DNA of 64,000 bases from Candidatus Schekmanbacteria bacterium. Lineage in GTDB: Bacteria > Schekmanbacteria > GWA2-38-11 > J061. The notes below the pieces were generated by a model that saw only the letters and a list, made by a program, of their open reading frames with translations, had not been told where the DNA came from and ran no database searches. The first letter of the stretch is position 1. Each line of letters starts with the position of its first letter. A program made the translations under genes and the position numbers. Below are positions 1 to 33,360 of this stretch, in pieces. The stretch spans positions 372,294-436,293 of the forward strand of contig JACRJM010000007.1 in assembly GCA_016219965.1 (NCBI GenBank). The letters are read 5' to 3'.

Positions 1-87
1 CCACGTCTTTGTAAAGAAGATGAAAGATTAAAATAATTCAAGTGTAAACCAGAGAGCCGCAGCTTTTAGTCTGCGGCATTTTATTTT

Positions 88-1260
88 ATGGGAAATGATA
101 ATCTATATCCTGTTTTTACAGCCGGCGTTTTCCTAAAACACCTTGAAGAACCGTACATCTACAACATATTAAATGACGAGCTTTACGAGATAAACGACGA
201 AGCGCTCGAATTTCTTATTAAATGTGATGGGATAACCCCCCTTTCCTCTCTTTCCTTCGATAATGAGTTCATGGATTACTGCTTAGAGGAAAAGCTTTTA
301 GAGCTAGCTGAAATCAGAATAGATAATCCAAAAAAACCGCCGGTCAGAAAGTCCCCTGTCCCGTCATTGAGATACCTTGAGCTTCAGATAACGGACAGGT
401 GTAACCTTGCCTGCCGCCATTGTTATCTTGGAGAGCCGAAAGGGAAAGAGCTTACGATTCAAAATATAAAGGATGTCTTCACACAGTTTGAAGAATTGCA
501 GGGACTCCGGATGATAGTCTCCGGCGGAGAGCCTATGCTTCACCGCGATTTTGCCATTATCAATGAAGAGATAAAAGGGCGCGCCTTCAGAGCTATACTT
601 CTTACTAACGGGACTATTATCAATGAAGAGAAAGCCAGGAATCTCAATTTCCAGGAGGTGCAGATAAGTCTCGACGGACTTGAAGAAGCACATGACCATC
701 TAAGGGGAAAAGGTAACTTTAAGAAAGCAGTTAAGGCTGCGAAAATTCTTATTGAAATGGGAATAGACGTCTCTGCGGCAACGATGATAACAAAGATGAA
801 CGCCAATGATTTCGAACCTTTGGAAGCTATGCTTAAAGATATGGGGGTAAAAGAGTGGGCTGTCGATGTGCCTGCAGGAACGGGTTTTGCGGCGGGAGGA
901 GGAGGTGATATCTTCTTGCCATCCAAAGAAGCTTCATTATATCTAAGATACGGATATGGAGGAGGGCTTTACCAGTCTACAGGGGAATATGCCTGCGGAG
1001 CCCACCTATGTGCGATAACACCTGACGGCAGCGTATGCAAATGCGGATTCTTCGCAGACAAGCCTGCCGGCAATATCAATGCTGACAGCCTTTCTGATTG
1101 CTGGGGCAGGATAGAGAAACAGAGATTCAGCGAGCTTGAATGCGGAAATTGCGAATATATTGCCGAGTGCCGCGGAGGATGCAGGTTCAGGGCAATGCTT
1201 GAGAGTTCCATGAATGCACCAGACAGTGTGAAATGCTTTGCGTATGGAATAAAAAAATAA
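88..1260 (+). CDS. Radical SAM/SPASM-domain peptide-modifying enzyme with N-terminal PqqD-like RRE (RiPP maturase-like)
   Basis: 390-aa ORF; CxxxCxxC cluster (DRCNLACRHCY); C-terminal SPASM-type Cys motifs (CGAHLC..CKCGFF and CGNCEYIAECRGGC); N-terminal ~85 aa (LYEINDEALEFLIKCDGITPL) resembles a PqqD/RRE peptide-binding domain. Confidence 0.8.
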   Translation: MGNDNLYPVFTAGVFLKHLEEPYIYNILNDELYEINDEALEFLIKCDGITPLSSLSFDNEFMDYCLEEKLLELAEIRIDNPKKPPVRKSPVPSLRYLELQITDRCNLACRHCYLGEPKGKELTIQNIKDVFTQFEELQGLRMIVSGGEPMLHRDFAIINEEIKGRAFRAILLTNGTIINEEKARNLNFQEVQISLDGLEEAHDHLRGKGNFKKAVKAAKILIEMGIDVSAATMITKMNANDFEPLEAMLKDMGVKEWAVDVPAGTGFAAGGGGDIFLPSKEASLYLRYGYGGGLYQSTGEYACGAHLCAITPDGSVCKCGFFADKPAGNINADSLSDCWGRIEKQRFSELECGNCEYIAECRGGCRFRAMLESSMNAPDSVKCFAYGIKK

Positions 1261-1476: not shown

Positions 1477-1516
1477 GGGGAAACATTGTAAACATATCGA
1501 TGTTTCCCTTTTTTTA
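1477..1516 (+). terminator. Intrinsic terminator hairpin
   Basis: GGGGAAACAT..ATGTTTCCC perfect inverted repeat followed by a T7 run; lies between the convergent rSAM and holB genes, A-rich on the 5' side so could act in both directions. Confidence 0.55.
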
Positions 1517-2884
1517 TAATGCCGCTGTCACATCAAGAAGGAAGTTTTCAAGGAGGAGTTCCTGATTTTCGTTTGATTGAAGCCGCTCTAATGCATCGCA
1601 TCCGTGGAAAAAAAGTTTATCAAGAGTGCCGACTGACAGCTCCCCAAAAGCTTTACTATGGATTATCTTATCCATGCTGACACAGAATTCCCCGTCAATA
1701 CCTGACTTATAAAATATAAGGTCTCTGATTATCCTTAAAAATATCTCCATAAAGTTTCTTATTTTTTGAATCTCATATCCCCGCGATGCATCAAGAATCC
1801 CTTGTTCAAAAAGCGGGAAACATATAAAGTTCGAGAGCTTGCTTTCCCCGCTTAGCAGAGCTTCGATGAAATCCCTGACTGCGGAATAACTCGCGTAATC
1901 AAATGACAGCGCATTGGCAGGACTTCCGGAAGACAAAATTGCAGCTGAAAATGAGTGCTCTTCCTGCAAAGAGGCTGATGCTGATAAAAACTCTTTAATC
2001 TCTCCGCTCTTTAAAGGAGCAAACCTCACTGTCTCGCATCTCGATCTTATAGTCTGAAGGATAGCTGCCGGCTTCGAAGTGACAAGGATTAAGATCGAAT
2101 CAGGCGGAGGCTCTTCAAGTGTTTTAAGAAAACAGTCCGCAGCTTCCTCGGTCATCCTGTGTGCGTTATCAATGATGAAGACCTTTTTCCTGCTCTCTAC
2201 AGGCTTCATATAAATATCGCTTATTATCCCTCTCACACTCTCTCCGATACCGCTCTCTCCGATCTTTAAGCTGTTGGAGTAGAATAAAGCAGAGCTTGAA
2301 ACAAGATAGCGGAAAACAGAGTTTGCTGTCTGATTCCGGCTCAATAATTTCTGCTGGATCGCCGCCATTACCTCGTACTCAATGTAGTAGCCCTGCTTTA
2401 CCTTGTCCGAGGAGAATATTTCATCCCTGTTCAGATAAACAGCGTCAAGTGCCCCGCCTCCCTTCCCTTCGGAAAGCCTTAAAGACAGGATATTCTCTTC
2501 TTCAAGAATTCTGAGAGCATTTAAATATTCTTCTTCTGAATCTTCGCGAGGGATAAGACTTCCGCCAAAAAGAACCTCCATCACTGAACCCCGTCTTAAA
2601 TAGATGGGGTCATTGATATCCTTGAATACCTTGATGTCAGGGTGAAAGAAATGTGGAGTTCCAAGTTTAACGCAACTGCTGCACGAGCAGCACGGATCTG
2701 CCCCTTTTCTATCAATGCAGTTTAGCGCCTTTGCAAAAACAATGGCCGCAAGTTTTTTACCTACGCCTTCGGGACCGGCAAAAAGAAAGGCATGAGGAAG
2801 CCTGTCTTTTTTTATCACCCTTTTTAAGAGTTCAAGGGCTCTGTCCTGCCCTATGATGGCGCTAAAATCCATTTCCTTAATCAT
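1514..2884 (-). CDS. holB: DNA polymerase III delta-prime subunit (clamp-loader AAA+)
   Basis: Walker A GPEGVGKK; zinc module CCSCSSC; VFIIDNAHRMTEEAADCFLKTLEEPP box; start placed at MIKEMDF (ORF-track start 2962 would overlap holA); unusually long for HolB (~456 aa). Confidence 0.7.
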   Translation of the reverse strand: MIKEMDFSAIIGQDRALELLKRVIKKDRLPHAFLFAGPEGVGKKLAAIVFAKALNCIDRKGADPCCSCSSCVKLGTPHFFHPDIKVFKDINDPIYLRRGSVMEVLFGGSLIPREDSEEEYLNALRILEEENILSLRLSEGKGGGALDAVYLNRDEIFSSDKVKQGYYIEYEVMAAIQQKLLSRNQTANSVFRYLVSSSALFYSNSLKIGESGIGESVRGIISDIYMKPVESRKKVFIIDNAHRMTEEAADCFLKTLEEPPPDSILILVTSKPAAILQTIRSRCETVRFAPLKSGEIKEFLSASASLQEEHSFSAAILSSGSPANALSFDYASYSAVRDFIEALLSGESKLSNFICFPLFEQGILDASRGYEIQKIRNFMEIFLRIIRDLIFYKSGIDGEFCVSMDKIIHSKAFGELSVGTLDKLFFHGCDALERLQSNENQELLLENFLLDVTAAL

Positions 2885-3987
2885 AATGAGACCAATGACA
2901 GGATAAGTTTCTCCACTATAATACCCTTTGACATACCGAAAGATTTCAATTCCACGTCGCATTCTCTAAGCACCCTGATTGCCTTAGCTGCAGACTGGGG
3001 AGAAAAATTCAATGCCGCAAGCATGAGGTTAAAAACATAAAATGGATGCCCTGAGATGAGATTCGCCTTCCCTGAGAGATAACTTTCATTGAAGGAACGG
3101 ATAAGAGGATGAATGCTTTTCATAAACATATCGTAGTTTATATTCCCTTTGGGTTTTCTGAATTCCATTTTTTCCATGAAATCATAGAACTGCAGAAATG
3201 AATGGAACCTCCTTGAAATCATATAAACGATTTGCATTTCTTCTTCGCCGCTTCTTACGAGCGCCCTGAAAAGCTCGACAGAGCGTCCTGCCTCTTTTCT
3301 ACCTATGGAATCTAAAAGTTCAAAAACCACGGTACTTTTGTTGGAAGTAACTATGCGCTCTACATCAGCTAAGGTTACTCTTACCCCCTTTCCGGAAGAA
3401 AGAGTGAGCATCAGCTTATCTGCCTCTATCCTTGTCTTGTAATAATCAAAATCGCTTTTGATGATAAGCTGCCTTAAGGCATCACTGTTTATTGAAAATC
3501 CCTTTTCTGAAAAATATCCGTTAAGTATCTGGGGAAGTTCGGAATCACTGATCTTGGTTTCCTTTGCAAATTCGAGCAGTTCCCAGCTCTTCTTAATCTG
3601 CTTATAAAAAGTTGTTCTTTTGTCCGGAACATCTTCCGGTATCACTATAAGAAAATTCCCTTCAGGAATTCCCGTTTCAATAGAGCTGGAAAACATTTTG
3701 AGATGCCTCTCCTCAATATTCTTCATGTCCCAGTCAATGAGGGCTAATATCTTGTTCCCCGGGAAAAAAGGGCGTGTCATGATGTTTGAGATTATATCCG
3801 GGACAGCAGGATGATTTTCTCCGTAAGATTCAAGGTTTGTATCAGGGGAGCCATCCTTCAGCAAGGCATCGCAAATAATCTTAAAAGCCTCCTTCTTCAA
3901 TCCTCTGTCGTCTCCCCCAATCAATATCAGAGGATTGGCTTTCCCCTCTGATATTTTTTTAATGAGGCTTTCAATGCCGGGTATCAA
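2881..3987 (-). CDS. holA: DNA polymerase III delta subunit (putative)
   Basis: 368-aa ORF immediately upstream of and co-directional with holB; N-terminal PLILIGGDDRGL pattern typical of delta subunits; assignment by context and weak motif. Confidence 0.5.
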   Translation of the reverse strand: MIPGIESLIKKISEGKANPLILIGGDDRGLKKEAFKIICDALLKDGSPDTNLESYGENHPAVPDIISNIMTRPFFPGNKILALIDWDMKNIEERHLKMFSSSIETGIPEGNFLIVIPEDVPDKRTTFYKQIKKSWELLEFAKETKISDSELPQILNGYFSEKGFSINSDALRQLIIKSDFDYYKTRIEADKLMLTLSSGKGVRVTLADVERIVTSNKSTVVFELLDSIGRKEAGRSVELFRALVRSGEEEMQIVYMISRRFHSFLQFYDFMEKMEFRKPKGNINYDMFMKSIHPLIRSFNESYLSGKANLISGHPFYVFNLMLAALNFSPQSAAKAIRVLRECDVELKSFGMSKGIIVEKLILSLVSL

Positions 3988-4136: not shown

Positions 4137-5885
4137 ATGCGGATGATACGTGTCGGTGCAGCGCAGATAAATACAACTGTAGGGGACCTTGCCGGGAATA
4201 CGTCTAAGATGACGGAAATCATAAAAAAGGCCAAGGACTTATCTATTGATATTCTGACATTCCCCGAGCTTGCAATCACAGGCTACCCTCCCAAAGACCT
4301 TCTGCTCAAGAGAAAGTTCATTCAGGACAATATCCAGATGCTTGATAAAATATGTAATGCCTCAAAAGGGATCATAGTCATTGCCGGATTCGTTAACGAG
4401 GAAAATGACATTTTCAACTCCGCTGCAGTCATACAGAACGGAAAGATAGTCGGCATCCAGAACAAGATACACCTTCCTAATTACAGTGTCTTTGATGAAA
4501 AAAGATATTTCAGGAGCGGAAAGGAAAGCCTGCTTTTTAAAGGAAAGAACATGACCTTCGGCGTCAACATCTGTGAAGATATATGGATTCCCGGATACCC
4601 GACTGAAAACCAGGCAAGTTCCGGAGCCGAGCTTATAATCAACATATCGGCTTCCCCTTATCATGTCGGCAAACCTGCGTTCAGGGAGGAAATGCTTAAG
4701 ACACGATGCACTGACAACATTGTCGCCCTTGTGTTCAACAATCTTGTAGGGGGACAGGACGACCTTGTATTTGACGGGCGAAGCATGATCATAAACTGCA
4801 AAGGGGAAATCCTCAGGAGAGGAAAGCTTTTTGAGGAAGACCTTATAATGTCTGACATAAACCTTGATGACATAAAAAGGATGAGGCTCCAGGACCCGAG
4901 GGGAAGGGAAGAACTCATGACTCCCGATGAGCATAAAGTAACGATAGTAAATATTGACGGGAAAATTTCTTCAGCAAAACAGAAGAAGAGAATCAGAGTG
5001 AACAGCAAGGCAGAGAAGGCATCTGGAAACAAGATCAGCCGCGCTGAGGAAATCTACAAAGCACTGGTCCTGGGAGTAAGCGATTATCTCAGAAAAAACG
5101 GTTTCAAACAGGTAATCCTGGGATTGAGCGGCGGGATAGATTCTTCGCTTGTAGCGACTATTGCCGTTGACGCACTTGGCAAAGAAAATGTCATTGGGAT
5201 CGCAATGCCGACTTCCATATCCTCATCACACAGCATTGAAGATGCGCGCCATCTTGCAAAGAACCTCTCCATAAGATTCGAGGTGGTTCCAATACAGTCT
5301 GTCTTTGATGAATACACAGAGATACTTTCCCCGCTTTTCAAGGGACGCAAATGGGATGTAGCTGAAGAAAACATCCAGGCAAGGATAAGAGGAAACATAC
5401 TGATGGCTCTTTCCAATAAATTCGGATACCTGCTGCTCACAACAGGGAACAAGTCTGAGCTGAGCGTCGGCTATGCGACACTTTACGGTGACATGGCAGG
5501 TGGCCTTGCCGTAATATCCGATGTCCCGAAAACATGGGTATATGAACTTGCAAGGTACAGGAACTCAGTTGCAGGAAAATCGCTCATCCCTGAAAGGTGC
5601 ATCACAAAACCACCTTCAGCAGAGCTTCGGCCAAATCAGAAAGACACGGATTCTCTTCCCGAGTACGAAATCCTGGATCAGATACTTCATCTTTATATTG
5701 AAGAGGACAACAGCCTTGAAGAGATAGTACGCCGGGGGATTGATGAAAAAACCGCACGCGATATGATACAGAGGATAGACGGGAATGAATACAAGAGACA
5801 GCAGGCCCCTCCGGGCATAAGGATAACAACAAAGGCTTTCGGTTCTGGAAGAAGGATACCAATCACTAACAAGTACAGAGGTTAA
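4137..5885 (+). CDS. nadE: Glutamine-dependent NAD+ synthetase
   Basis: N-terminal nitrilase/CN-hydrolase domain fused to C-terminal NAD synthetase with PP-loop LGLSGGIDSS. Confidence 0.9.
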   Translation: MRMIRVGAAQINTTVGDLAGNTSKMTEIIKKAKDLSIDILTFPELAITGYPPKDLLLKRKFIQDNIQMLDKICNASKGIIVIAGFVNEENDIFNSAAVIQNGKIVGIQNKIHLPNYSVFDEKRYFRSGKESLLFKGKNMTFGVNICEDIWIPGYPTENQASSGAELIINISASPYHVGKPAFREEMLKTRCTDNIVALVFNNLVGGQDDLVFDGRSMIINCKGEILRRGKLFEEDLIMSDINLDDIKRMRLQDPRGREELMTPDEHKVTIVNIDGKISSAKQKKRIRVNSKAEKASGNKISRAEEIYKALVLGVSDYLRKNGFKQVILGLSGGIDSSLVATIAVDALGKENVIGIAMPTSISSSHSIEDARHLAKNLSIRFEVVPIQSVFDEYTEILSPLFKGRKWDVAEENIQARIRGNILMALSNKFGYLLLTTGNKSELSVGYATLYGDMAGGLAVISDVPKTWVYELARYRNSVAGKSLIPERCITKPPSAELRPNQKDTDSLPEYEILDQILHLYIEEDNSLEEIVRRGIDEKTARDMIQRIDGNEYKRQQAPPGIRITTKAFGSGRRIPITNKYRG

Positions 5886-8518
5886 GCTGAAAGGCTTAAA
5901 GGTGGCGTCGTCTGCTTATGGCATATTTTTAAAAACTCATCGAAATCCACACGTTCTGTCATTTTTGAATATGTGATATTAATCTTTTCCTCGACATCCC
6001 TGTCCTTCACGATAACAGGCCTGCGGGCAAATGTTTCAAGGTAAAGATCAACATGCCCTTTGTCGCGTGTTATCACTACTTCAACGTACTTGGCTGAATA
6101 GCGTAATTTCAAACGCATAATATAGAATACAAGGACTTCGATAAAATCACCCGCCTCTATTGCAGAATCAGGAAGACCGCAAAACCTGCGGTTGTCTATG
6201 TAGTTGTCATAGAGGTCTTTAAATAAATCAAACTCATCTTCAACAGCAGAAGTTTTAATTCTGAGCCTGAAAACTTCCATGCCTGTTCCATCAGGAACTG
6301 ATGCATATGCCGGAGCTGATACGTCTGCCGGAACAGATGTAATAGGCTCTGTCTTATTTTTTCCTGCCTGAGCTTCAGATGAGATTGAAACCGGTTTGCT
6401 GATATTTGCTGCTGGAATATTCTTATTCACTCCGTATGTCTCAACATATTCACTGTTGCAAACTTCGATGAGCTGATCCAGCGTGCGTGCTTTATACTTA
6501 TCAGACTCCATCTGGAAAACTACCCTGTTAATTTCTTTAAGGGTCGTAATACCTTTAAGCGATTTGTAAATCCCATCTTCCCTCAGTGAAATGAGTTCCG
6601 CCGCCTGCCTTGCAATATGCCTGATTTCAGATGAAGGCATTCTTTGAAGAATCGCATCTCTAATCGAGTCATTCAAAACAAGAAGTTCATGGATGGCAGT
6701 CCTTCCCTTGAATCCGGTATGATTGCATTTATCGCAACCTTTTCCTTTGTAAAATTTATGATTCTGTGCATCATCGGGTGATATGTGGAAGGAAGCCAGC
6801 ACTTCAGGATCCAGATCGGTATCTTCCACCTTGCAGTATCCGCATATTGTTCTTACAAGGCGCTGGGACATAACTGACACTATTGTTGATGAAATAAGAA
6901 ATGTCTCAATACCCATATCCATGAGCCTCAGCAGTGCGCTTGTACTGTCATCGGTATGGAAGGACGAGAGGACCTTATGTCCTGTCAGCGCTGCCTGGAT
7001 AGTTGCCTCGGCAGCCACTTTATCGCGCACCTCGCCAACCATCAGCACATCCGGGTCCTGCCTCATCATGGATTTTAAGAAATCCATATAGCTCATACCG
7101 AGTTTTGGATCCAGTTTTCCCTGAACAACCCCATCAATCATATACTCAACAGGGTCTTCAACAGTGATGATAGAGTAATTTTTTTTGTTCAGATAGCAGA
7201 GAACAGCATAAAGACTTGTCGTCTTACCCGAACCTGTAGGCCCTGTTGCAAGAATAACACCTGTAGGAGAATCGACAATCTTCCTGAACCTTGAGAGATT
7301 GATAGGCGAAAGCCCCAGGCTCTCTATATCAATTAATGACGACTGCCTGTGGAGTATCCTGATGACAATGGTTTCGCCATAGACTGAAGCGTAAGTTGAA
7401 ACCCTGAGGTCTATCTCTTTACCCATTACGTTTGCATATATCTTCCCATCCTGGTGCCGCCTTTTTTCAGAGATATCAAGCTGGCATACGGCTTTTATTC
7501 TTGAAGCCACGTTGGGAGCAATGCTGGAAGGCAAATCTGTTTTATGTACCATTACACCGTCAATCCTGTATCTTATTCTTAACCTGTTCTGCTGGGGCTC
7601 AATGTGAATATCGCTTGCACCCTCTTTTACTCCATTGGATATTATATAATTTACGACTGAAACTATTTTATCATCTCCCCTGCTCAAATCCACATTACCT
7701 ATTGTAAGCTGGCTCTTGCTTAAAGATGATGATTCACTGCCGTTAAAAGAGCCCAAGTCTTTAAGATGTACTTTCTCATAGACATTCTTTATGGCAAAAA
7801 GGATCTCTTCTTTTGAAGCTATTCCTACTATGACATTATCTTTGATTGTAGACTTAATGCTGATTATTAAATTTTCATCAAGCGGGTCAGCCATCGCAAT
7901 AGTAACATTGTTCTCATCGTTAAAAACAGGGATGAAGTAGTTTGTTTCGAGGAACTTCCTATTAAAACTGTTTAACAGCGATGCCTCTATAAGAAGCGGG
8001 TCTGGTTTTATCCTTGGGATATCGAGCTGATGGCTTAAAGCCATGATAAGGTTTTCTTCGTTTATACATCCCATCTCAACCAGTGTCTCTCCGAGCTTCT
8101 TATTAAGAACCTTCTGCTTTTGAAGTGCCTCCCCAACCTGTTTTTCATTGATGAGACCCATTGAAGTGAAAAGCTCACCTATTCTCATCTCCTTGCCATA
8201 TTGCTTTATGATGTTCTTGAGCTCATGCCTTGTAATAAGACCTTCAGCAATACATATCTCTCCAATGGGGAGATGTTCAGTAGATTCTTTTTGAAGGATA
8301 AGAAGCCTTTGAAGCTCTTCTTCTTTAATTATCTTTTCCTTTACCAGAATCTCGCCAAGTTTTAGCTTTGTCTTTGCAGGAACCATCTGTTTACATGCCT
8401 TGCCATAAAAAAATTGTGAGAACGTTTCTTCGTCACCACGCGCTCTAATATTAACATATCTAACATAACTATCATCTCTGTTAATGAAACAATTATCCAA
8501 TTCCATAAGACTTGACAA
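5882..8518 (-). CDS. GspE/PilB-family secretion ATPase with four N-terminal T2SSE_N-like repeats and a ~200-aa C-terminal extension
   Basis: Walker A GPTGSGKTT; tetracysteine CGYC..CDKC motif; four tandem LGE(I/L)..(E/Q)..L repeats at the N-terminus; extra C-terminal region of unknown function; true start may be an internal Met. Confidence 0.8.
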   Translation of the reverse strand: MSSLMELDNCFINRDDSYVRYVNIRARGDEETFSQFFYGKACKQMVPAKTKLKLGEILVKEKIIKEEELQRLLILQKESTEHLPIGEICIAEGLITRHELKNIIKQYGKEMRIGELFTSMGLINEKQVGEALQKQKVLNKKLGETLVEMGCINEENLIMALSHQLDIPRIKPDPLLIEASLLNSFNRKFLETNYFIPVFNDENNVTIAMADPLDENLIISIKSTIKDNVIVGIASKEEILFAIKNVYEKVHLKDLGSFNGSESSSLSKSQLTIGNVDLSRGDDKIVSVVNYIISNGVKEGASDIHIEPQQNRLRIRYRIDGVMVHKTDLPSSIAPNVASRIKAVCQLDISEKRRHQDGKIYANVMGKEIDLRVSTYASVYGETIVIRILHRQSSLIDIESLGLSPINLSRFRKIVDSPTGVILATGPTGSGKTTSLYAVLCYLNKKNYSIITVEDPVEYMIDGVVQGKLDPKLGMSYMDFLKSMMRQDPDVLMVGEVRDKVAAEATIQAALTGHKVLSSFHTDDSTSALLRLMDMGIETFLISSTIVSVMSQRLVRTICGYCKVEDTDLDPEVLASFHISPDDAQNHKFYKGKGCDKCNHTGFKGRTAIHELLVLNDSIRDAILQRMPSSEIRHIARQAAELISLREDGIYKSLKGITTLKEINRVVFQMESDKYKARTLDQLIEVCNSEYVETYGVNKNIPAANISKPVSISSEAQAGKNKTEPITSVPADVSAPAYASVPDGTGMEVFRLRIKTSAVEDEFDLFKDLYDNYIDNRRFCGLPDSAIEAGDFIEVLVFYIMRLKLRYSAKYVEVVITRDKGHVDLYLETFARRPVIVKDRDVEEKINITYSKMTERVDFDEFLKICHKQTTPPLSLSA

Positions 8519-8566
8519 TCTCCCCGCTATTGCCGGAATATGTGCTGATTTTTTAATAGGTTAACA

Positions 8567-9985
8567 ATGGCTAATATGAGACAAAAACTTTCATCACTGC
8601 ATATTGTCACAATCCTTATCGGGTGTGTCTATATCTGTTATTTCATCCTGAAAATCAGTATGTTTGCTCAACATTCAGAATCGATAAAATACGCTTTTGC
8701 CATTAAAGAGTTTCATAAAAACATTGTAAGCTTTACCTTATTTCCCAAATGGGCTTCAGGGTTTGGGAATGGCTATGGCTATCCTCTTTTTATATTCAGC
8801 CCTCCGCTTTTCTTTTTTTTAGCTGAGCCCTTCGCCTTAAGCGGGATAAGTCCATTCTCATTATTGAATATTATTTCTGTGCTCACCGTCTTTTGCTGCG
8901 CCATTTCCATGTTCAGACTTTCTGAAGATGTTTCTGGCATAAGAGGAGGGCTTATATCATCATTAATCTACCTCTTTTCCCCATCTCTCATATCAATACT
9001 TTTTAACCGCAATAATTTTGATGATATTTACTCTTTTCTCTTCCTCCCATTGTCATGCTGCATAGCTGGAAAATCATACAAAATAGAAGAAGCGGATTTA
9101 TCAATTAATACAAAACATTTTATAAAGTTATCTTTCTGCTGCTCTCTTCTATTTCTTTCATCAAAACCGACTTTTATGATGACTTTGTCATTGCTCTTAT
9201 ACTCACTATTTTATCATTTTATAGTCTGTAAAAATAAGAGGCCGTTGAGATTCTTATTAATCAATTCAGGAGGCATATTTACAGGGCTCTGGCTTTCTGC
9301 ATTTTTCTGGTTCCAGGCAGCATTGGAAGCTAAATATATCTATGGGAATGACTCTGAAGGCAATATTTTTCTTCCTCTGATTTTACCGGCTTCTTTTTTC
9401 ATCTCATTCCTGGCAGGACTGCTGTTTAAAGATAAATCCTACAATAAGCCTTATAAATTGAGGCTTCTCACAATCATATCTGTTCTGATTATTTTTATTG
9501 GAGGAGCATGGAATATTTCTGACAATATAAACAATATCAAAGAAACTACAGAAATCTACGAATGGCAGGACACACTTCCCTATTCCGTAGGGCAGGAATA
9601 CATGCCCATAGGGGTTAAGAAGATGCCGGACAATGAACCGCGAGTGCCTCTTGAAACGATCTCCGGGAAATTAGGAGTGCTAAGGAAAGAGATATCCCCG
9701 TCAGAAAGGGGGATAAGGGTAAAGGCAGTAGCTGGAAGTGCAACAGTACGTCTTAATTTATTTTACTTCCCAGGATGGACTCTTAAGATAAAAGATATTG
9801 AACCGGTACCGGTCCCCTTCACCGTCGATGACACCGGAAGAATAATCGCTAAACTTCCAGAAGGTGTTAATTTTCTGAGAGTGACTTTTGATCCCACCAT
9901 TGCAAGGATTGCAGGAGAGCTCATATCATTTACAGGGCTACTCTTCTGCCTCTTCCTGTTCATTTACAAAAAAGAGAAAAAATAA
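8567..9985 (+). CDS. Polytopic integral membrane protein with C-terminal soluble domain (possible membrane glycosyltransferase/polymerase)
   Basis: 472-aa ORF, many hydrophobic segments, adjacent to the glycosyltransferase cluster; no diagnostic motif recognised. Confidence 0.45.
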   Translation: MANMRQKLSSLHIVTILIGCVYICYFILKISMFAQHSESIKYAFAIKEFHKNIVSFTLFPKWASGFGNGYGYPLFIFSPPLFFFLAEPFALSGISPFSLLNIISVLTVFCCAISMFRLSEDVSGIRGGLISSLIYLFSPSLISILFNRNNFDDIYSFLFLPLSCCIAGKSYKIEEADLSINTKHFIKLSFCCSLLFLSSKPTFMMTLSLLLYSLFYHFIVCKNKRPLRFLLINSGGIFTGLWLSAFFWFQAALEAKYIYGNDSEGNIFLPLILPASFFISFLAGLLFKDKSYNKPYKLRLLTIISVLIIFIGGAWNISDNINNIKETTEIYEWQDTLPYSVGQEYMPIGVKKMPDNEPRVPLETISGKLGVLRKEISPSERGIRVKAVAGSATVRLNLFYFPGWTLKIKDIEPVPVPFTVDDTGRIIAKLPEGVNFLRVTFDPTIARIAGELISFTGLLFCLFLFIYKKEKK

Positions 9986-9988
9986 AGG

Positions 9989-12052
9989 TTATCTTGAGAC
10001 AAGTACACCTTCAATCTCACGCTCTATTCCATTTATTGTTTCTGAAAAAAGATATGACATTCTCACAGTCTGAACAGCGGCTTGTCCGGTTTTTCGTACC
10101 TCTTCAGGATTTTTTAATAGTCTCATAAGTATTGATTTCAGGAGCTCGATATTTCCGGGTTTGATTATATAGCCGTTCACACCATCCCTGATAATCTCTC
10201 CAATGCTCCCGGTATCAGATGCTATAACGGAAAGCCCGCTGGCCATAGCTTCGAGAATCACAAGTGGGAACCCTTCAGCATAGGAAGGAAGGACAAAGAT
10301 ACCGCACTCCCGCAACACCTTTCTTTTCCGCTCTCCATCCACCCATCCGGTGAGACTCACCTTTTTATCAAGGTTATGGTCACTGATAAATTTTTTCACA
10401 TTCCCATCGCTATCCACACCTGCCAGAACAAGCTTCGCATCAATTCCATCTTCCCCTGAAATCTCAGCAAAAGCTTTCAGAAGGTCATATATTCCTTTGC
10501 GCTCCTCAAGTTGTCCCATAAAAAGTATCCCGCCGGCCTTGTCATATTTCTTTTCTCTTCCATCTTCTGTGAAAAGCTCAAGCTCTGGAGAGGAAGGTGG
10601 AACAATGCTTATGTCTTCTCTTCCGGAAATATAGGAAAGGCTCTGCTTCCAGCAGTCAGAAAGCGCGATAAGCCTATCTGCGCGTTTAAAGATATAGTGC
10701 ATATATTTTTTTACTAACTCATTAGACCTTGCATAAAAATGGTCAATATCAAATGAATGACAGTAAATGACGGTCTTCACCCTAAAGAAATATGCAATAA
10801 GTGCAATGATGGACTTCCTGAAAAAGCTTGCATCCCCGCTCATGTAGATTAAGAGCATATGGGGCGGATTAAGTATAAGCTTAAGCTTCAACTTTACAAA
10901 TGCAGAAAGCGCTTTAAATAATTTTGAGATCTTCCCCCCCGAGACATGTGTCTCAAGGTAATCCAAACGGTATTTTTCTGAAAGTCTGCTCTTTAGAAGA
11001 AATCCAGCCTGTCTTGAAAGCCCTCCTTTCACCGAGAGAGCGGGGCCTGCAAGCATTATGCGCATCGAAGGAATAGTGTCTGAAAACGGTCTGAATTCAT
11101 CAAAGGGAAAAACAAGGAATCTGAAGTGCCCCTTTATTCGCGCGCTCTCCCTCTCTTCATCACCTATAGAAAGAGAGAATTTCAATATAGCTGCCAACAG
11201 TCTGATGATTGTGCCGGTTTTTTTTATGGCAATAAATATCTTCCCTTTCCAGAGAGGGCTCCTTCTTATAAATGCAAGGCATCCGCTCCTCTGGAACTCA
11301 AAGTACATTCTGCCGACCCATTCCGCATCCAGCTTCCCTGACTCCGGAAATGAGCTCTGTCTGTGTCTGTGAACCATCGTGGCATCCGGCACAAAACCTA
11401 TCTTCCAGCCAAGAGCCCTTGCCTTGAAACAAATATCTTCATCGCCTGTAAATGAAGTTTCATCAAAACCCCCGGTCTTTTCTATAGCCTTGCGCCTCAT
11501 TATCATTGCTGCGCCCATTATCCAGTCAGGGTATATCTTTTCCGATGAATCGCGCTTTTCTATTTCAGCAACCGGAAACTCTGCGATATTCTTAAAAAAT
11601 CTGTCTATGAAAAATGCCTCTGCTAAAGCCCTCAAAAGCGTTCTGTCCTTAAAACAGGTCGCTTGATTTCCTCCATCAGGATAAAATAGTCTGCACCCGG
11701 CAATCCCGACATCATTATTCTCTTCCATAAATTTTATGAGCCTGTTCAGCGCCTCCGGAAGCACAATTACATCATTATTGAGCACAAAAAGGTATTCTCC
11801 GGTAGCCACTCTCATTCCGGCATTTACAGCTTTTGTAAATCCAAGATTGCTTTCATTTCTGATGACCTTTGCTTCAGGAAATTGCTGGGAAAGCATCTCC
11901 ACAGTGCCGTCAGTCGAACCATTATCTATGACTATAGCCTCAGACTGAAACGAGGAAGGAGCCCCTTTCAGTGATTCGAGGCATTGAGCGAGCATCTCTT
12001 TTCCATTCCATGTTGGAATGACTATGGATAATTTGTAATTATATTCCTTCAT
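9989..12052 (-). CDS. Bifunctional glycosyltransferase (N-terminal GT2 + C-terminal GT4/GT1-type)
   Basis: N-term SIVIPTWNGKE..IVIDNGSTDGT (GT2); C-term EGFPLVILEAMASGLSVIASDTGSIGEIIRDGVNGYI (GT4 signature); start placed at MKEYNYKL to limit overlap with the downstream gene. Confidence 0.8.
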   Translation of the reverse strand: MKEYNYKLSIVIPTWNGKEMLAQCLESLKGAPSSFQSEAIVIDNGSTDGTVEMLSQQFPEAKVIRNESNLGFTKAVNAGMRVATGEYLFVLNNDVIVLPEALNRLIKFMEENNDVGIAGCRLFYPDGGNQATCFKDRTLLRALAEAFFIDRFFKNIAEFPVAEIEKRDSSEKIYPDWIMGAAMIMRRKAIEKTGGFDETSFTGDEDICFKARALGWKIGFVPDATMVHRHRQSSFPESGKLDAEWVGRMYFEFQRSGCLAFIRRSPLWKGKIFIAIKKTGTIIRLLAAILKFSLSIGDEERESARIKGHFRFLVFPFDEFRPFSDTIPSMRIMLAGPALSVKGGLSRQAGFLLKSRLSEKYRLDYLETHVSGGKISKLFKALSAFVKLKLKLILNPPHMLLIYMSGDASFFRKSIIALIAYFFRVKTVIYCHSFDIDHFYARSNELVKKYMHYIFKRADRLIALSDCWKQSLSYISGREDISIVPPSSPELELFTEDGREKKYDKAGGILFMGQLEERKGIYDLLKAFAEISGEDGIDAKLVLAGVDSDGNVKKFISDHNLDKKVSLTGWVDGERKRKVLRECGIFVLPSYAEGFPLVILEAMASGLSVIASDTGSIGEIIRDGVNGYIIKPGNIELLKSILMRLLKNPEEVRKTGQAAVQTVRMSYLFSETINGIEREIEGVLVSR

Positions 12053-12989
12053 CAAAGCCCTTATGCAGGTGGTAGAGAAAAGCGTTCTTTGCAAAAAAAG
12101 CTAACAGACCTGACATCTCATCATCTGGATTTTTTTTTGCCAGGATTTTTTCGACTATTCTTGCTGTAAAGCGGTTCCTGATTGCCCTTTTAATGAATCT
12201 TTTTTTTAGCACAAGCTTACCATCTTTTGATTCATAACCATAAGTAGCTGCAACCTCAGGCCATTTGGATAGAAATATCCTGAGAGCTCTTCCGCTTGTC
12301 TCCATCCTCGCGAGCAATCTGGAAAGTTCCTGCCTATGATTATGTTCAACCACTGCATTCTGGTTAAAAACAATCTTCATCCCTGCTTTTTCAAGCCTGT
12401 AGCCAAACTCGATATCCTCCCATGCCGCGGCAGGAAACTTCTCATCAAAAAATATGTTATTCTTTACAACAAAACTTTTTTTAAGAGAGAGATTTGAAGA
12501 ATAAAAATTGTGAAAATCCGTTTCATAGTTTTTCGAGCCTTCAGTTTTTTTAAACTGGAATTCTGCTTCATCAAGAAAGCGATGCAGACTGTTCCGTGCA
12601 ATGGATTTTTCCCACACAACAGCTCCTACCATAGCATACTCATCCCCACAGTAATCCTTCTCATGAAACCTGAGATGCTCATTTAATGTATCCGGAGAAA
12701 CAAGAATATCATCACCCGTAAAAAAAATAATATTCGAGCTAGCCGCCCTTATCCCTGTGTTTCTTGCTGAAGCAGGCCCCCTTTTCGCTGAAGGAATATA
12801 ATTTATCTTTTCCTTAAATTTCAAACATATCTCCCTGTTCCTATCCATCACAGCAGAGTCTGATCCATCATCAACAACGATAATCTCCATTTCACTTAAA
12901 AGAACTCCGGAGGAAACCAGTTTAGAAAGAGCATCTACAAGCTGCTCCGGACGGTTCCGCGTCGGGATTATAATTGAAATGCGGTTCAT
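12039..12989 (-). CDS. Family 2 glycosyltransferase
   Basis: ISIIIPTRNRPEQL..IIVVDDGSDS motifs. Confidence 0.75.
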   Translation of the reverse strand: MNRISIIIPTRNRPEQLVDALSKLVSSGVLLSEMEIIVVDDGSDSAVMDRNREICLKFKEKINYIPSAKRGPASARNTGIRAASSNIIFFTGDDILVSPDTLNEHLRFHEKDYCGDEYAMVGAVVWEKSIARNSLHRFLDEAEFQFKKTEGSKNYETDFHNFYSSNLSLKKSFVVKNNIFFDEKFPAAAWEDIEFGYRLEKAGMKIVFNQNAVVEHNHRQELSRLLARMETSGRALRIFLSKWPEVAATYGYESKDGKLVLKKRFIKRAIRNRFTARIVEKILAKKNPDDEMSGLLAFFAKNAFLYHLHKGFDEGI

Positions 12990-25825: not shown

Positions 25826-27100
25826 TTATTTTTCATCCCTCATCGAGCAGAAAACTCCGCACATGGTACATACGTCGGGAGCCGCGGGTTTTGACGATTC
25901 CCTTATGGCAGCAGCCTTTTCAGGATTGATTGAAAGGCTTATCTGCTTCTTCCAGTCAAGATTTCTTCTCGCCCTGGCCATTTCAATATCCCTTTCCATG
26001 GCGCCCTTCTTCCCCTTTGCCACATCGGCGGCATGTGCGGCAATCCTTGCGACTATCACGGCTTCCTTCACATCATCAACCGTTGGAAGCCTTAAATGCT
26101 CGGACGGAGTCACATAACAGAGAAAATCCGCACCATAACTTCCTGCAAGTGCACCTCCTATGGCTGACGTAATGTGATCATAGCCAGGAGCAATATCGGT
26201 AACAAGAGGACCTAATACATAAAACGGCGCTCCTTTGCAAAGCTTTTTCTCCAAAAGTATATTGGTCTCAATCTGGTTAATTGGGACATGTCCGGGACCT
26301 TCTATCATAACCTGCACACCTACATTCCATGCAGACTGCGCAAGCTCACCCAGATGGATAAGCTCCTGCACCTGCGCCCTGTCAGTGGCATCGCTAAGAC
26401 ATCCCGGCCTTAAACCATCACCAAGGCTTATCGTTACATCATACTCCTTAAGGATCTCGAGGAGCCGTCCATAGTCCTCATAGTAAGGATTCTCTTTTTC
26501 ATTATGCCTCATCCATTTTGAAAGTATGGAACCGCCGCGGCTCACTATGCCGGTAATGCGTCCCTCTTTATCAAGGGCATCAAGAGCTCTTAATGTCACA
26601 CCGCAATGGACTGTTACGAAATCAACCCCTTCTTTAAGATGGTCTTCAACAGCCTTGAAAAAATCATCTTTCTTTATATCCTTTATGGACTTTCCATTTT
26701 CAAATGCATCAACTGCCGTCATATATATTGGCACAGTGCCTACCATAACATTGCTTGCTTTAATCACCCTGCGCAAGGTCTCTGCTAAGTTGCCGCCTGT
26801 GCTTAAATCCATTACTGCATCTGCTCCGGCTTTTACCGCAACTTCAACTTTTTTTATTTCCTCATCAATGTCGTGCATCTCAGGGGAAGTCCCGATATTG
26901 GCATTCACTTTTGTGAATAGCCCTTCACCTATGCCGCGCGGCTCTATCCCCCGCTTTCGTCGATTATTAAATGGAATCGCCACTTTCCCTTCTGCTATTT
27001 TTTTAGCAAGCTCTTCGCAGTCTATCCCTTCATAAGCGGAGACCCTTTCCATTTCAGGTGTCAGTTCCCCGCTTCTTGCTTTTTCAATTAATGTCTTCAT
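25826..27100 (-). CDS. thiC: Phosphomethylpyrimidine synthase
   Basis: ThiC-like sequence throughout; C-terminal CTMCGVFCSM Fe-S motif. Confidence 0.9.
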   Translation of the reverse strand: MKTLIEKARSGELTPEMERVSAYEGIDCEELAKKIAEGKVAIPFNNRRKRGIEPRGIGEGLFTKVNANIGTSPEMHDIDEEIKKVEVAVKAGADAVMDLSTGGNLAETLRRVIKASNVMVGTVPIYMTAVDAFENGKSIKDIKKDDFFKAVEDHLKEGVDFVTVHCGVTLRALDALDKEGRITGIVSRGGSILSKWMRHNEKENPYYEDYGRLLEILKEYDVTISLGDGLRPGCLSDATDRAQVQELIHLGELAQSAWNVGVQVMIEGPGHVPINQIETNILLEKKLCKGAPFYVLGPLVTDIAPGYDHITSAIGGALAGSYGADFLCYVTPSEHLRLPTVDDVKEAVIVARIAAHAADVAKGKKGAMERDIEMARARRNLDWKKQISLSINPEKAAAIRESSKPAAPDVCTMCGVFCSMRDEK

Positions 27101-28527: not shown

Positions 28528-29102
28528 AGAATAGCCCTTATCATTGCCACACCGTCTGCCCCTGCATCAATCACATCTTTGCAGTTTTCGATATCAATCC
28601 CTCCGATGGCTATGACCGGCACTGAGACGTTCTTCCTTATCAGCTTTATTCCTTCAATACCGCGCGGCTCTATCAATCCTTCTTTTGAAGGGGTCTTAAA
28701 AACAGGACCATAGGTAATATAGTCAGCGCCTTCCTTTTCAGCCGTAACTGCATCTTCAACTCCATGGCATGAAACCCCTACAATCATGGAATAGGGTTTT
28801 AACAGTTTCTTTACCTCATAAAGAGGAAGCGACTTCCATCCAAGATGTATCCCGTCAACTCCTGCTGCAATCGCGACATCAACGCGGTCGTTGATTATTA
28901 TCTTTGCTGATTTCCCTGATGCTATTTTTATTTCCTGCACAAGCTTATAAAGTTCGCGGGCATTTAAATCCTTCTCGCGCACCTGGATTGAATCAACGCC
29001 GCCGCGTACAGCATCTCTCGCAATCCCGCACAAATTCCCTTTTGCAAGCGCCCTGTCTGTTACAAGGCAAAGTTTAAATGGAGTCTCTTTCAACCCGTTC
29101 AA
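28473..29102 (-). CDS. thiE: Thiamine-phosphate synthase
   Basis: LCLVTDRAL.. and GVDGIHLG.. ThiE motifs. Confidence 0.85.
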   Translation of the reverse strand: MNGLKETPFKLCLVTDRALAKGNLCGIARDAVRGGVDSIQVREKDLNARELYKLVQEIKIASGKSAKIIINDRVDVAIAAGVDGIHLGWKSLPLYEVKKLLKPYSMIVGVSCHGVEDAVTAEKEGADYITYGPVFKTPSKEGLIEPRGIEGIKLIRKNVSVPVIAIGGIDIENCKDVIDAGADGVAMIRAILCAGDAEEEARKIRRIIS

Positions 29103-30099: not shown

Positions 30100-30262
30100 G
30101 CACCAAAAATAAAAAAACCGGAAACCTAAAAGGTCCCGGCTATTATCAATAAGGCAAATCTTTGCTCCCTTCGCTGGCATTACCCAGATCAGGTTCAAAG
30201 GGTCACCCCGCAAACCGGGATTTCTCAGCCCTCATCAGGCTCCCCTAACAACCGCATATTAG
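30100..30262 (-). ncRNA. TPP (THI-box) riboswitch with terminator-type expression platform
   Basis: Minus-strand reads UAGGGGAGCCUGAUGAGGGCUGAGAAAUCCCGG..ACCCUUUGAACCUGAUCUGGGUAAUGCCAGCGAAGGGA, matching the conserved THI-element core (CUGAGA, ACCUGAUCUGG, UAAUGCCAGCG, AGGGA); followed by CCGGGA..UUUCCGG hairpin and U7 before the thiS start. Confidence 0.85.
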
Positions 30263-32249: not shown

Positions 32250-32282
32250 TGTTTATCTTTCAGGATTTTGTTTTTTTCTTCA

Positions 32283-32413: not shown

Positions 32414-32448
32414 CTTATTACCCTTTTGAACTTAATACATAGACAACA

Positions 32449-33318: not shown

Positions 33319-33360
33319 TTTAATCCTATATTTGAAACAATAGATGGGGACAAATCTTCG

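What the first reader, a model, noticed from the sequence alone, without database searches (positions are those of the whole stretch)
5882..8518. Stand-alone PilB/GspE-like ATPase with expanded N-terminal repeats and a C-terminal extension
The ATPase core and tetracysteine motif are canonical, but the protein has four tandem T2SSE_N-type helical repeats (LGEILVKEKIIKEEELQRL.., IGEICIAEGLITRHEL.., IGELFTSMGLINEKQV.., LGETLVEMGCINEENL..) and ~200 extra C-terminal residues. No pilin, platform or secretin genes are adjacent; the neighbours are nadE and a glycosylation cluster. Such stand-alone extended ATPases can act as signalling-regulated motors (some N-terminal domains of this type bind c-di-GMP).
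Basis: partly seen in the sequence, partly recalled or inferred. Interest (0 to 1): 0.45.

Follow-up and report, generated by a model that had tools for sequence, protein, structure and literature searches.

The report
Orphan c-di-GMP-sensing PilB-like ATPase
This is a real, intact secretion/pilus-type motor ATPase that sits alone in the genome. It has a doubled sensor for the bacterial signal c-di-GMP at its front end and a conserved, uncharacterised extra domain at its tail, and it belongs to a widespread family from uncultured bacteria that nobody has studied.

Summary
ORF 5882-8518 (-) encodes a PilB/GspE/MshE-class ATPase (Pfam T2SSE, E 6e-116) with intact Walker A/B, Asp and His boxes and two CxxC pairs.

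About 40 N-terminal residues of the deposited gene model are probably a start-site artefact. The repeats and the ~210-residue C-terminal extension are not.

The extension is a short helix, a disordered linker and a ~125-residue domain (pLDDT >90). That domain is a remote homologue of the uncharacterised MXAN_5187 C-terminal domain (hhalign 98%, E 1.8e-13). Its fold looks like a lid-less SpoIIAB/RsbW-type module without ATP-binding boxes.

All 120 closest homologues have four repeats, and 93 also have the C-domain. All named ones come from metagenome-assembled genomes (MAGs).

No pilus or T2SS gene lies in the 64-kb window or in the eleven gene-annotated related loci. In 13 of 30 related loci (12 if one contig fetched twice counts once), but not in this window, a REC/degenerate-GGDEF protein that keeps its RxxD I-site lies immediately upstream.

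Verdict: new variant of a known kind. The output of the motor is unknown.

The parts
5882..8386 (-). Most likely coding sequence of the ATPase (834 aa, start ATG at 8386, stop at 5882-5884)
   Evidence: The ORF runs 5882-8518. Homologues start at residue ~41-46 of the long model. The region upstream of 8386 does not align with Schekmanbacteria relatives.
8387..8518 (-). Upstream in-frame open stretch (TTG 8518 / ATG 8506), included in the deposited 874-aa model; probably 5' untranslated
   Evidence: It is not conserved in any homologue.
8198..8362 (-). First MshEN_N motif pair (repeats R1 at residues 49-72 and R2 at 80-103, 7-residue spacer); non-canonical (K at position 10 of R1; P at position 1 and Y at position 24 of R2)
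   Evidence: NF053729 scores 44.2 bits against a cut-off of 38. The AF2 model shows four helices at pLDDT ~90.
8027..8185 (-). Second MshEN_N motif pair (R3 at residues 108-131 and R4 at 137-160, 5-residue spacer KVLNK); near-canonical c-di-GMP site
7775..8026 (-). MshEN_C / N1 alpha-beta subdomain (residues 161-244)
6524..7678 (-). N2 and C-terminal ATPase domains (T2SSE, residues 277-661) with Walker A (7217-7243), Asp box (7142-7168), Walker B (7022-7057), His box (6953-6988) and tetracysteine CxxC...CxxC (6833-6844, 6725-6736)
   Evidence: Pfam E 6.1e-116. The nearest solved relatives are PilF 6f8l, PilB 5tsg and GspE 4pht.
6455..6508 (-). Conserved post-ATPase segment (residues 667-684, family consensus NESDxxxPRSxEEIIxLCE), of which residues 676-684 are modelled as a helix; followed by a variable, low-confidence linker (residues ~685-742, window 6281-6454)
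   Evidence: Alignment. AF2 gives helix 676-684, and the linker blocks average pLDDT 44-51.
5900..6280 (-). C-terminal globular domain (residues 743-869): beta-alpha-alpha-beta-beta-beta-alpha; a remote MXAN_5187_C-like domain with a lid-less GHKL-like fold

Best explanation
**What it is**
- The gene encodes an assembly-type (PilB/MshE/PilF/GspE-class) hexameric ATPase with an intact catalytic core and a zinc-type tetracysteine site.
- Its activity or partner engagement is gated by c-di-GMP. The ligand most likely binds the near-canonical second MshEN_N motif pair (R3-R4, 5-residue spacer).
- The extra first pair (R1-R2) is a degenerate copy. It lacks the motif-II arginine and glutamine, so it probably binds weakly, not at all, or serves another contact.

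**The C-terminal domain**
- A flexible ~55-residue linker carries a compact C-terminal domain. It is homologous to the uncharacterised MXAN_5187 C-terminal domain.
- The domain has no nucleotide-binding boxes. It is most likely a protein-protein docking or oligomerisation module through which the motor is recruited or read out.

**How it is deployed**
- The gene is monocistronic and is not linked to any filament or secretion machine, here or in relatives.
- In many relatives a receiver/degenerate-GGDEF protein that keeps its RxxD I-site is encoded immediately upstream.
- The family therefore looks like a dedicated c-di-GMP effector module. It would either plug into a type IV filament machine encoded elsewhere or act as a signalling ATPase.

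**Shown versus inferred**
- Shown: domain anatomy, motif content, family conservation, orphan context, and the partner linkage in relatives.
- Inferred: c-di-GMP binding, hexamer formation, and the docking role of the C-domain.
- Unknown: what the motor drives.
For: **ATPase core**
- T2SSE at E 6e-116, with all catalytic boxes and the tetracysteine present.
- The closest solved relatives are the extension ATPases PilF (3.6e-125) and Geobacter PilB, and GspE.

**c-di-GMP module**
- NF053729 scores 86.6 bits for the whole protein, with two matching stretches. Each pair alone is above the 38-bit cut-off.
- The motif definition, the 5-residue spacer and the existence of tandem (MshEN_N)2 come from PMC5013675.
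- In PilF GSPII-A, a construct that bound c-di-GMP again carried the motif-II Arg and Gln restored, along with other mutations and a truncation (PMC12002112). This supports treating R1-R2 as degenerate.

**Family and C-domain**
- All 120 top homologues carry four repeats, and 93 carry the C-domain.
- The C-domain profile finds only 36 representative proteins among 1.84 billion. The strong hits are T2SSE C-termini.
- Remote homology to NF041621 rests.

**Orphan context**
- The window scan found no pilus or T2SS parts.
- The same holds for the eleven Pfam-annotated related loci fetched around the ATPase's homologues.

**Partner protein**
- A REC/degenerate-GGDEF protein lies immediately upstream on the same strand in 13 of the 30 related loci (L001-L030). 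L006 and L014 are the same contig fetched twice, so this is 12 distinct places.
- It aligns over its full length at 24-52% identity between distinct loci. GGDEF is replaced by ETASF, KGGNF and similar, while RK[SA]DI[VI]A[RQK] sits in the exact I-site register.
Against: - No binding, ATPase or genetic data exist for any member of the family.
- None of the four repeats matches the published strict or relaxed regular expression exactly. Each has one deviation: K10, C6, T7 and C11 respectively.
- Across the family, position 1 of R3 is variable, so even the second pair is not uniformly canonical.
- The partner protein is absent from this window, from the related Schekmanbacteria loci and from the Binatia loci. 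The module idea may therefore not apply to this organism.
- Only 64 kb of a contig of at least 516 kb was visible. A pilus or T2SS machine elsewhere in the genome cannot be excluded.
Confidence: 0.55

Rival explanations
1. It is an ordinary pilus (or T2SS) extension ATPase whose machine genes are scattered elsewhere in the genome. The extra domains only fine-tune it. It would be the house PilB, or a spare MshE-like paralogue serving a type IV filament.
For: - The best NCBIfam scores are to GspE and PilB equivalogs (about 494 bits each).
- The nearest solved structures are PilF, PilB and GspE.
- c-di-GMP-dependent MshE, PilB and PilF are established pilus motors (PMC5013675, PMC11656802).
- Scattered pil genes are common in bacteria (general knowledge).
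Against: - Scores are below both equivalog cut-offs (630 and 676 bits).
- None of the eleven Pfam-annotated related loci (nine distinct genomic contexts, from several phyla), nor this 64-kb window, places a platform protein, pilin, PilM-Q, PilT or secretin within 8-10 kb.
- The one recurrent neighbour, where there is one, is a signalling protein.
- One MAG carries two paralogous ATPase-partner pairs (L014 and L024).
Confidence: 0.35
2. It is a c-di-GMP-controlled regulator of envelope glycan or exopolysaccharide production. It would act on the neighbouring membrane protein and glycosyltransferases, by analogy with PilB signalling to EPS in Myxococcus and with the MshEN-bearing glycosyltransferase NfrB.
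For: - The divergent neighbour is a multi-pass membrane protein whose Schekmanbacteria orthologue has a weak PTPS_related hit. GT2-GT4, GT2 and GT2 genes follow.
- The membrane-protein/ATPase pair is kept in three Schekmanbacteria-type loci.
- The MshEN motif pairs also hit the NfrB and EpsG models.
- M. xanthus PilB signals to EPS (PMC5544727, title and abstract listed).
Against: - The ATPase is separated from the GT run by an opposite-strand gene and shares no transcript with it.
- In the same three loci the nadE-holA-holB-radical-SAM synteny is equally conserved. The adjacency may therefore be inherited gene order.
- Outside Schekmanbacteria the neighbours are unrelated housekeeping genes or the REC/GGDEF-like partner.
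Confidence: 0.1
3. The C-terminal extension and/or the extra N-terminal pair are non-functional relics or gene-model artefacts on an otherwise standard ATPase.
For: - The first ~40 residues of the deposited model do look like an artefact.
- The linker is low-complexity and variable.
Against: - The four repeats lie downstream of every plausible start and are present in 120 of 120 homologues, with position-specific conservation such as P1 of R2 in 116 of 120.
- The C-domain is conserved down to about 22% identity across phyla, folds at pLDDT above 90, and has detectable homologues as a free-standing domain family.
Confidence: 0.03

Closest known systems
Vibrio cholerae MshE (MSHA pilus extension ATPase; MshEN c-di-GMP receptor, PDB 5HTL)
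   Same: - Same overall class: MshEN_N four-helix motif pair, MshEN_C, N2, then an ATPase domain with tetracysteine.
- It uses the 24+5+24-residue motif layout.
   Different: - An additional, degenerate motif pair sits in front with no MshEN_C of its own.
- It has a ~210-residue C-terminal extension with a globular domain.
- It is not encoded in a pilus operon.
- Binding of c-di-GMP is untested.
Thermus thermophilus PilF (three GSPII/MshEN domains, PDB 6F8L, 8PDK, 9G1W)
   Same: - It is the best solved sequence relative (E 3.6e-125).
- It also has a multiplied N-terminal c-di-GMP module in which some copies bind and one does not (PMC12002112).
   Different: - PilF repeats the complete GSPII domain (N and C subdomains) three times. 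This protein duplicates only the 53-residue-type helical module.
- PilF has no C-terminal extension and serves a known pilus and DNA-uptake machine.
NCBIfam NF041621 'MXAN_5187 C-terminal domain' (uncharacterised; ~200-aa hypothetical proteins and the ~600-aa MXAN_5187 family)
   Same: - The core beta-alpha-alpha-beta-beta of the C-terminal domain aligns at hhalign probability 98.0%, E 1.8e-13, over 79 columns.
- 9 of 29 family C-domains hit the model, best E 2.5e-5.
- The weak library hits of the C-domain profile include proteins that pass the NF041621 cut-off: 7 of the 8 scanned.
   Different: - The window protein scores 15.2 bits against a cut-off of 30.
- This version is fused to a T2SSE ATPase and carries extra C-terminal strands and a helix.
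- No function is known for either, and no paper mentions MXAN_5187 in the searched library.
SpoIIAB / RsbW / SiaB anti-sigma-factor serine kinases (GHKL fold)
   Same: - The beta-alpha-alpha-beta-beta order is the same.
   Different: - The alignment has no N-box Asn and no G1 or G2 glycine boxes, and the ATP-lid segment is missing.
- Foldseek E-values are not significant.
- The only sequence hint is PhoQ CA at E 0.53.
- This is a fold resemblance only.
Degenerate-GGDEF I-site receptors with receiver domains (e.g. Caulobacter PopA; from general knowledge) - applies to the partner gene seen in relatives, not to the window
   Same: - The partner has an N-terminal REC and a C-terminal GGDEF-family domain.
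- The GG[DE]EF active site is lost and RxxD is retained five residues upstream, in the exact register.
   Different: - It is a different middle domain and a distinct orthologous family.
- It is genetically coupled to a T2SSE-type ATPase.
- It is absent from this window.

Membership tests
T2SSE / PilB-GspE-PilT superfamily secretion ATPase (Pfam PF00437) | Profile match above the gathering score | tested here: met
   387.5 bits against a cut-off of 24.9, residues 277-661.
T2SSE / PilB-GspE-PilT superfamily secretion ATPase (Pfam PF00437) | Walker A, Asp box, Walker B with catalytic Glu, and His box | tested here: met
   GPTGSGKTT, ITVEDPVEY, DPDVLMVGEVRD and LTGHKVLSSFHT, read from the translation.
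Assembly-type subclass (PilB/GspE/MshE) | Tetracysteine zinc site in the C-terminal domain, and an N1 (GSPII/MshEN) domain | tested here: met
   CGYC at 555-558 and CDKC at 591-594. PF05157 at 161-244. Metal binding itself is not testable here.
Type IV-A pilus PilB equivalog (TIGR02538) | Score at or above the curated equivalog cut-off | tested here: not met
   493.9 bits against a cut-off of 675.65.
T2SS GspE equivalog (TIGR02533) | Score at or above the curated equivalog cut-off | tested here: not met
   494.7 bits against a cut-off of 630.25.
Type IV pilus / T2SS gene system | Platform protein (PilC/GspF), pilins or pseudopilins, alignment complex or secretin encoded with the ATPase | tested here: not met
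   None among the 57 ORFs scanned across the 64-kb window, nor in the eleven Pfam-annotated related loci. The rest of the genome is not visible.
MshEN c-di-GMP receptor domain | [quoted passage not shown] | tested here: met
   - R3-R4 is RIGELFTSMGLINEKQVGEALQKQ, then KVLNK, then KLGETLVEMGCINEENLIMALSHQ.
- NF053729 scores 61.5 bits against 38.
- The exact regular expression fails at one core position in each motif (T7 and C11).
MshEN c-di-GMP receptor domain | The same motif pair in the extra N-terminal copy (R1-R2) | tested here: inconclusive
   - NF053729 scores 44.2 bits against 38.
- The spacer is 7 residues. R1 has K at position 10.
- R2 has P at position 1 and Y at position 24, so the Arg and Gln contacts are lost. 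This resembles non-binding PilF GSPII-A.
MshEN c-di-GMP receptor domain | Four-helix bundle plus alpha-beta MshEN_C fold | tested here: met
   [not shown]
MshEN c-di-GMP receptor domain | Measured c-di-GMP binding | not testable with these tools
   Needs ITC or DRaCALA on the purified N-terminus.
MXAN_5187 C-terminal domain (NCBIfam NF041621) | Score at or above the curated cut-off (30 bits) | tested here: not met
   The window C-domain scores 15.2 bits, E 0.021.
MXAN_5187 C-terminal domain (NCBIfam NF041621) | Profile-level homology to bona fide members | tested here: met
   hhalign gives 98.0%, E 1.8e-13, over 79 columns. The members used pass NF041621.
GHKL ATPase / anti-sigma-factor kinase (HATPase_c) | Bergerat fold | tested here: inconclusive
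   [not shown]
GHKL ATPase / anti-sigma-factor kinase (HATPase_c) | N-box Asn, G1 DxGxG and G2 GxxGxG nucleotide-binding boxes, and an ATP lid | tested here: not met
   The 29-sequence alignment has no such conserved residues. The invariant or near-invariant positions are R, R, Y, F and E. There is no Pfam HATPase_c hit.
PilZ domain | Pfam PilZ match in the N- or C-terminal regions | tested here: not met
   No PilZ hit at E up to 1.

The most novel reading that the evidence does not exclude
The four-repeat PilB-like ATPases, with or without the MXAN_5187_C-like tail, form a filament-independent c-di-GMP effector module. A hexameric motor is switched on by c-di-GMP at its doubled MshEN_N sensor. 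It works together with a dedicated receiver/degenerate-GGDEF I-site receptor where that partner is present, and it uses its tethered C-terminal domain to capture or remodel a target protein instead of extruding a pilus. That would be a new use of a secretion-type ATPase as a signalling machine.
Probability: 0.2. Interest if true: 0.7.

Novelty: new variant of a known kind. Interest (0 to 1): 0.45.

Why it matters
- **Known background:** c-di-GMP-binding MshE/PilB/PilF ATPases are established switches between motile and attached lifestyles.
- **What is new here:** this clade is widespread in uncultured Desulfobacterota, Binatia, Schekmanbacteria and other lineages. It (i) duplicates only the ligand-binding helical module, (ii) often adds a conserved tail domain belonging to a family with no known function, (iii) is never encoded next to a filament machine in the loci examined, and (iv) is frequently paired with a second putative c-di-GMP receptor.
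- **If it drives a pilus machine encoded elsewhere:** it defines a new regulatory layer.
- **If it does not:** it would be a secretion-type motor repurposed for signalling.
- **Either way:** it gives the orphan MXAN_5187_C domain its first functional context and offers a tractable set of binding and interaction experiments.
- **Annotation:** the NCBI record names it a 'TadA' Flp-pilus ATPase, which is imprecise. It is PilB/GspE/MshE-class.

Tried and rejected
- **afdb50 library:** the Foldseek search against afdb50 could not be run because the library is not installed.
- **First genome scan:** The search for related loci with the 29-sequence C-terminal alignment failed for lack of a conserved stretch. 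A tighter 8-sequence alignment worked. It is biased towards Desulfobacterales- and Binatia-type members and returned only MAGs.
- **C-domain against PDB sequences:** the profile gave only PhoQ CA at E 0.53, which is not significant.
- **Pfam on the C-domain and its weak relatives:** nothing found.
- **PilZ:** no hit at E up to 1. Rejected.
- **Riboswitch idea:** a c-di-GMP riboswitch or other RNA element upstream was tested. Rfam found nothing at gathering scores over the whole window, and nothing at E up to 1 in 8300-8700.
- **Promoter and terminator scans:** the counts were near those expected from shuffled sequence and were not used.
- **Binatia upstream gene:** the ~235-aa gene was checked as a possible cut-down partner. 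It is a CDP-alcohol-phosphatidyltransferase-like membrane protein, unrelated.
- **L028 downstream gene:** the 228-aa gene was checked as a possible detached C-domain. It is not one.
- **Context of free-standing MXAN_5187_C proteins:** the contigs were too short or uninformative, with cdaA-ybbR-glmM next door.
- **Literature:** searches found no description of C-terminally extended PilB-like ATPases, of the ATPase-partner pair, or of MXAN_5187.
- **Not attempted:** a comparison with a SpoIIAB sequence recalled from memory was deliberately left out.

Full report
**1. The observation**

- ORF 5882..8518 on the minus strand is present. Read from ATG 8506, it gives an 874-aa protein identical to one deposited from a Candidatus Schekmanbacteria MAG on a 516-kb contig. 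NCBI names that protein 'Flp pilus assembly complex ATPase component TadA'.
- Pfam finds T2SSE at residues 277-661 (E 6.1e-116) and MshEN at 161-244 (E 2e-12).
- NCBIfam's best hits are the GspE and PilB equivalogs at about 494 bits each. Both are below their curated cut-offs of 630 and 676 bits.
- Walker A, the Asp box, Walker B, the His box and the two CxxC pairs are all intact.
- The nearest solved relatives are T. thermophilus PilF (3.6e-125), Geobacter PilB and GspE/EpsE. None of them covers anything beyond residue ~669.

**2. Start site**

- Homologues begin 3-8 residues before the first repeat, which corresponds to M41 of the long model.
- The 120 nt upstream of that ATG (8386) do not align with the two closest Schekmanbacteria loci, whereas the coding sequence downstream does.
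- The first ~40 residues are therefore probably an artefact of start choice. Neither the repeats nor the C-terminal extension depends on this.

**3. The four repeats**

- The repeats lie at residues 49-72, 80-103, 108-131 and 137-160.
- They are copies of the 24-residue MshEN_N motif. Wang et al. (PMC5013675) defined it as RLGxx(L/V/I)(L/V/I)xxG(L/V/I)(L/V/I)xxxxLxxxLxxQ. Two copies joined by five residues form a 53-residue four-helix bundle that binds one c-di-GMP.
- R3 and R4 are joined by exactly five residues (KVLNK). They keep R/K at position 1, G3, G10, a hydrophobic residue at 17, L21 and Q24.
- R1 and R2 are joined by seven residues. R1 has K for G10. R2 has P at position 1 and Y at position 24.
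- Each repeat misses even the relaxed published pattern at one position.
- Even so, each pair alone passes the curated cut-off of NCBIfam NF053729 'c-di-GMP_motif': 44.2 bits for R1-R2 and 61.5 bits for R3-R4, against 38.
- An AF2 model of residues 41-262 has pLDDT 90.1 and shows eight helices followed by an alpha-beta subdomain.
- In PilF GSPII-A, a construct that bound c-di-GMP again carried the motif-II Arg and the terminal Gln restored, along with other mutations and a truncation (PMC12002112). By that analogy the first pair here is probably a weak binder or a non-binder. This is an inference.
- Tandem (MshEN_N)2 arrangements were already noted by Wang et al., so the duplication itself is not new.

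**4. Family**

- All 120 best homologues carry four repeats with position-specific conservation:
  - R1 and R4 are canonical, with K/R at position 1 and Q at position 24.
  - R2 has a nearly invariant P at position 1 (116 of 120) and no Q at position 24.
  - R3 has a variable position 1 but keeps Q at position 24.
- 93 of the 120 also carry the C-terminal domain.
- Named sources are all MAGs: Desulfobacterales, Syntrophaceae, Syntrophobacteraceae, Desulfatiglandaceae, Binatia, Nitrospinota, Verrucomicrobiia and Schekmanbacteria.

**5. The C-terminal extension**

- After the ATPase comes a conserved segment with family consensus NESDxxxPRSxEEIIxLCE, whose last residues (676-684) are modelled as a helix. 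A variable linker follows, then a conserved domain of about 125 residues with a conserved terminal helix.
- AF2 on residues 655-874 with 29 aligned sequences gives block means of 85-97 (mostly above 90) for residues 743-869. The order of elements is beta-alpha-alpha-beta-beta-beta-alpha. The linker blocks average pLDDT 44-51.
- No Pfam family matches.
- An exhaustive HMM search of 1.84 billion representative proteins with the domain profile found only 36 proteins at E up to 1e-3. The strong hits are C-termini or fragments of T2SSE ATPases.
- Among the weak hits, 7 of the 8 scanned pass the curated cut-off of NCBIfam NF041621, 'MXAN_5187 C-terminal domain'.
- 9 of 29 family C-domains hit that model, best E 2.5e-5. 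The window protein scores 15.2 bits against a cut-off of 30.
- Profile-profile comparison gives 98.0% probability, E 1.8e-13, over 79 columns.
- The tail domain is therefore a divergent, extended member of an uncharacterised domain family. That family is otherwise seen mainly in ~200-aa hypothetical proteins and is absent from the searched literature.

**6. Context**

- The gene is bracketed by a convergent nadE and a divergent 472-aa multi-pass membrane protein. It is therefore monocistronic.
- 57 of the window's larger ORFs (150 aa or more) were scanned against Pfam. No platform protein, pilin, secretin, PilMNOP or PilT turned up. The content is housekeeping, thiamine, glycosylation and envelope genes.
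- The same three-gene arrangement, and the holA-holB-radical-SAM genes beyond it, recur in three Schekmanbacteria-type loci. The neighbourhood of glycosyltransferases may therefore be inherited synteny.
- In 13 of the 30 related loci (L001-L030) the gene immediately upstream on the same strand is a ~480-580-aa orthologous protein with an N-terminal receiver, a middle domain and a GGDEF-family domain. L006 and L014 are the same contig fetched twice, so this is 12 distinct places.
  - The set includes one locus whose ATPase lacks the C-domain.
  - It also includes two paralogous pairs in a single MAG.
- In the 11 sequences aligned, GG[DE]EF is replaced (ETASF, KGGNF, KDSTF and similar) and the upstream metal-site and substrate motifs are lost. 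RK[SA]DI[VI]A[RQK] keeps RxxD in the exact I-site register. The register is judged against the canonical RxxD-5-GG[DE]EF spacing from general knowledge.
- This looks like a second c-di-GMP receptor, not a cyclase.
- The partner is absent from the window and from the Schekmanbacteria and Binatia loci.
- None of the eleven Pfam-annotated loci (nine distinct contexts) shows pilus or T2SS genes.

**7. Mechanism**

- Best supported: a c-di-GMP-gated, assembly-type hexameric ATPase. Its tethered C-terminal domain mediates docking or read-out. It is deployed as an orphan effector.
- What it drives is open. My estimates are:
  - roughly 0.35 that it drives a type IV filament machine encoded elsewhere;
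  - roughly 0.2 that it is a filament-independent signalling motor;
  - roughly 0.1 that it has a glycan-regulatory role.
- My overall confidence that the anatomy and ligand assignment are right is about 0.8. My confidence in the stated best explanation as a whole is about 0.55.

**8. Novelty**

- MshEN-bearing T2SSE ATPases and tandem MshEN_N modules are known.
- I found no description in the searched literature of the fusion to an MXAN_5187_C-like domain, of the consistent orphan location, or of the coupling to a degenerate-GGDEF receiver protein.
- I rate it a new variant of a known kind, of moderate interest.

Noticed in passing
L001 8504-9994, L002 8441-9976, L006 6547-7962, and L007-L010, L021-L024, L027 (upstream of each ATPase): A conserved orthologous family of REC / middle-domain / degenerate-GGDEF proteins. 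The active site is lost but the RxxD I-site is kept. It is encoded immediately upstream of four-repeat PilB-like ATPases. I found no description of this pair in the searched literature.
   Followed up: partly
P0153 (271 aa, from the representative library): A protein consisting of an MshEN-like N-terminus fused directly to the C-terminal MXAN_5187_C-like domain, with no ATPase in between. This suggests the two end domains can work together without the motor.
   Followed up: no
L014 and L024 (same MAG, JBLIRR01 scaffolds 49 and 27): Two divergent paralogous ATPase-partner gene pairs occur in one genome.
   Followed up: no
window 49-160 of the protein; family alignment: Across the family the outer motifs (R1, R4) keep the canonical K/R at position 1 and Q at position 24. 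The inner ones deviate: R2 has an invariant P at position 1 and no Q, and R3 has a variable position 1. The pattern is unexplained and might reflect a non-standard arrangement of the eight helices.
   Followed up: partly
window 30149-30256 (-): A TPP riboswitch (68.1 bits) lies upstream of the thiamine cluster: thiG 29111-29893, thiE 28473-29102, a ThiD-ThiN fusion 27097-28527, and thiC 25826-27100.
   Followed up: no
window 32001-34500: GC content drops to 0.34, against about 0.42 elsewhere. ORFs 32449-33318, 33661-34113 and 34020-34484 have no Pfam match. This may be foreign or fast-evolving DNA.
   Followed up: no
window 57999-60512 (+) and 60683-63271 (+): Two adjacent large paralogues (837 and 862 aa) carry DUF7948 plus multiple SBBP beta-propeller repeats. 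One also has a thrombospondin type 3 repeat. They are probably secreted or surface proteins.
   Followed up: no
window 9989-12094 (-): A 701-aa fusion of a GT2 and a GT4 glycosyltransferase is followed by two further GT2 genes, then panC and a CDP-alcohol phosphatidyltransferase in the same direction.
   Followed up: no
window 1514-2962 (-): The DNA polymerase III delta-prime-like protein is long (482 aa), and its DNA_pol3_delta2 match is split into two stretches. The same split appears in the Schekmanbacteria relatives L003 and L004. An insertion is possible.
   Followed up: no
window 5882-5885: The stop regions of the ATPase (minus strand) and nadE (plus strand) overlap by 4 bp, so there is no room for separate terminators between the convergent genes.
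   Followed up: no
NCBI record of P0001: The deposited product name, 'Flp pilus assembly complex ATPase component TadA', does not fit. The protein has an MshEN N1 domain and a tetracysteine, and it scores best to the PilB and GspE models.
   Followed up: yes
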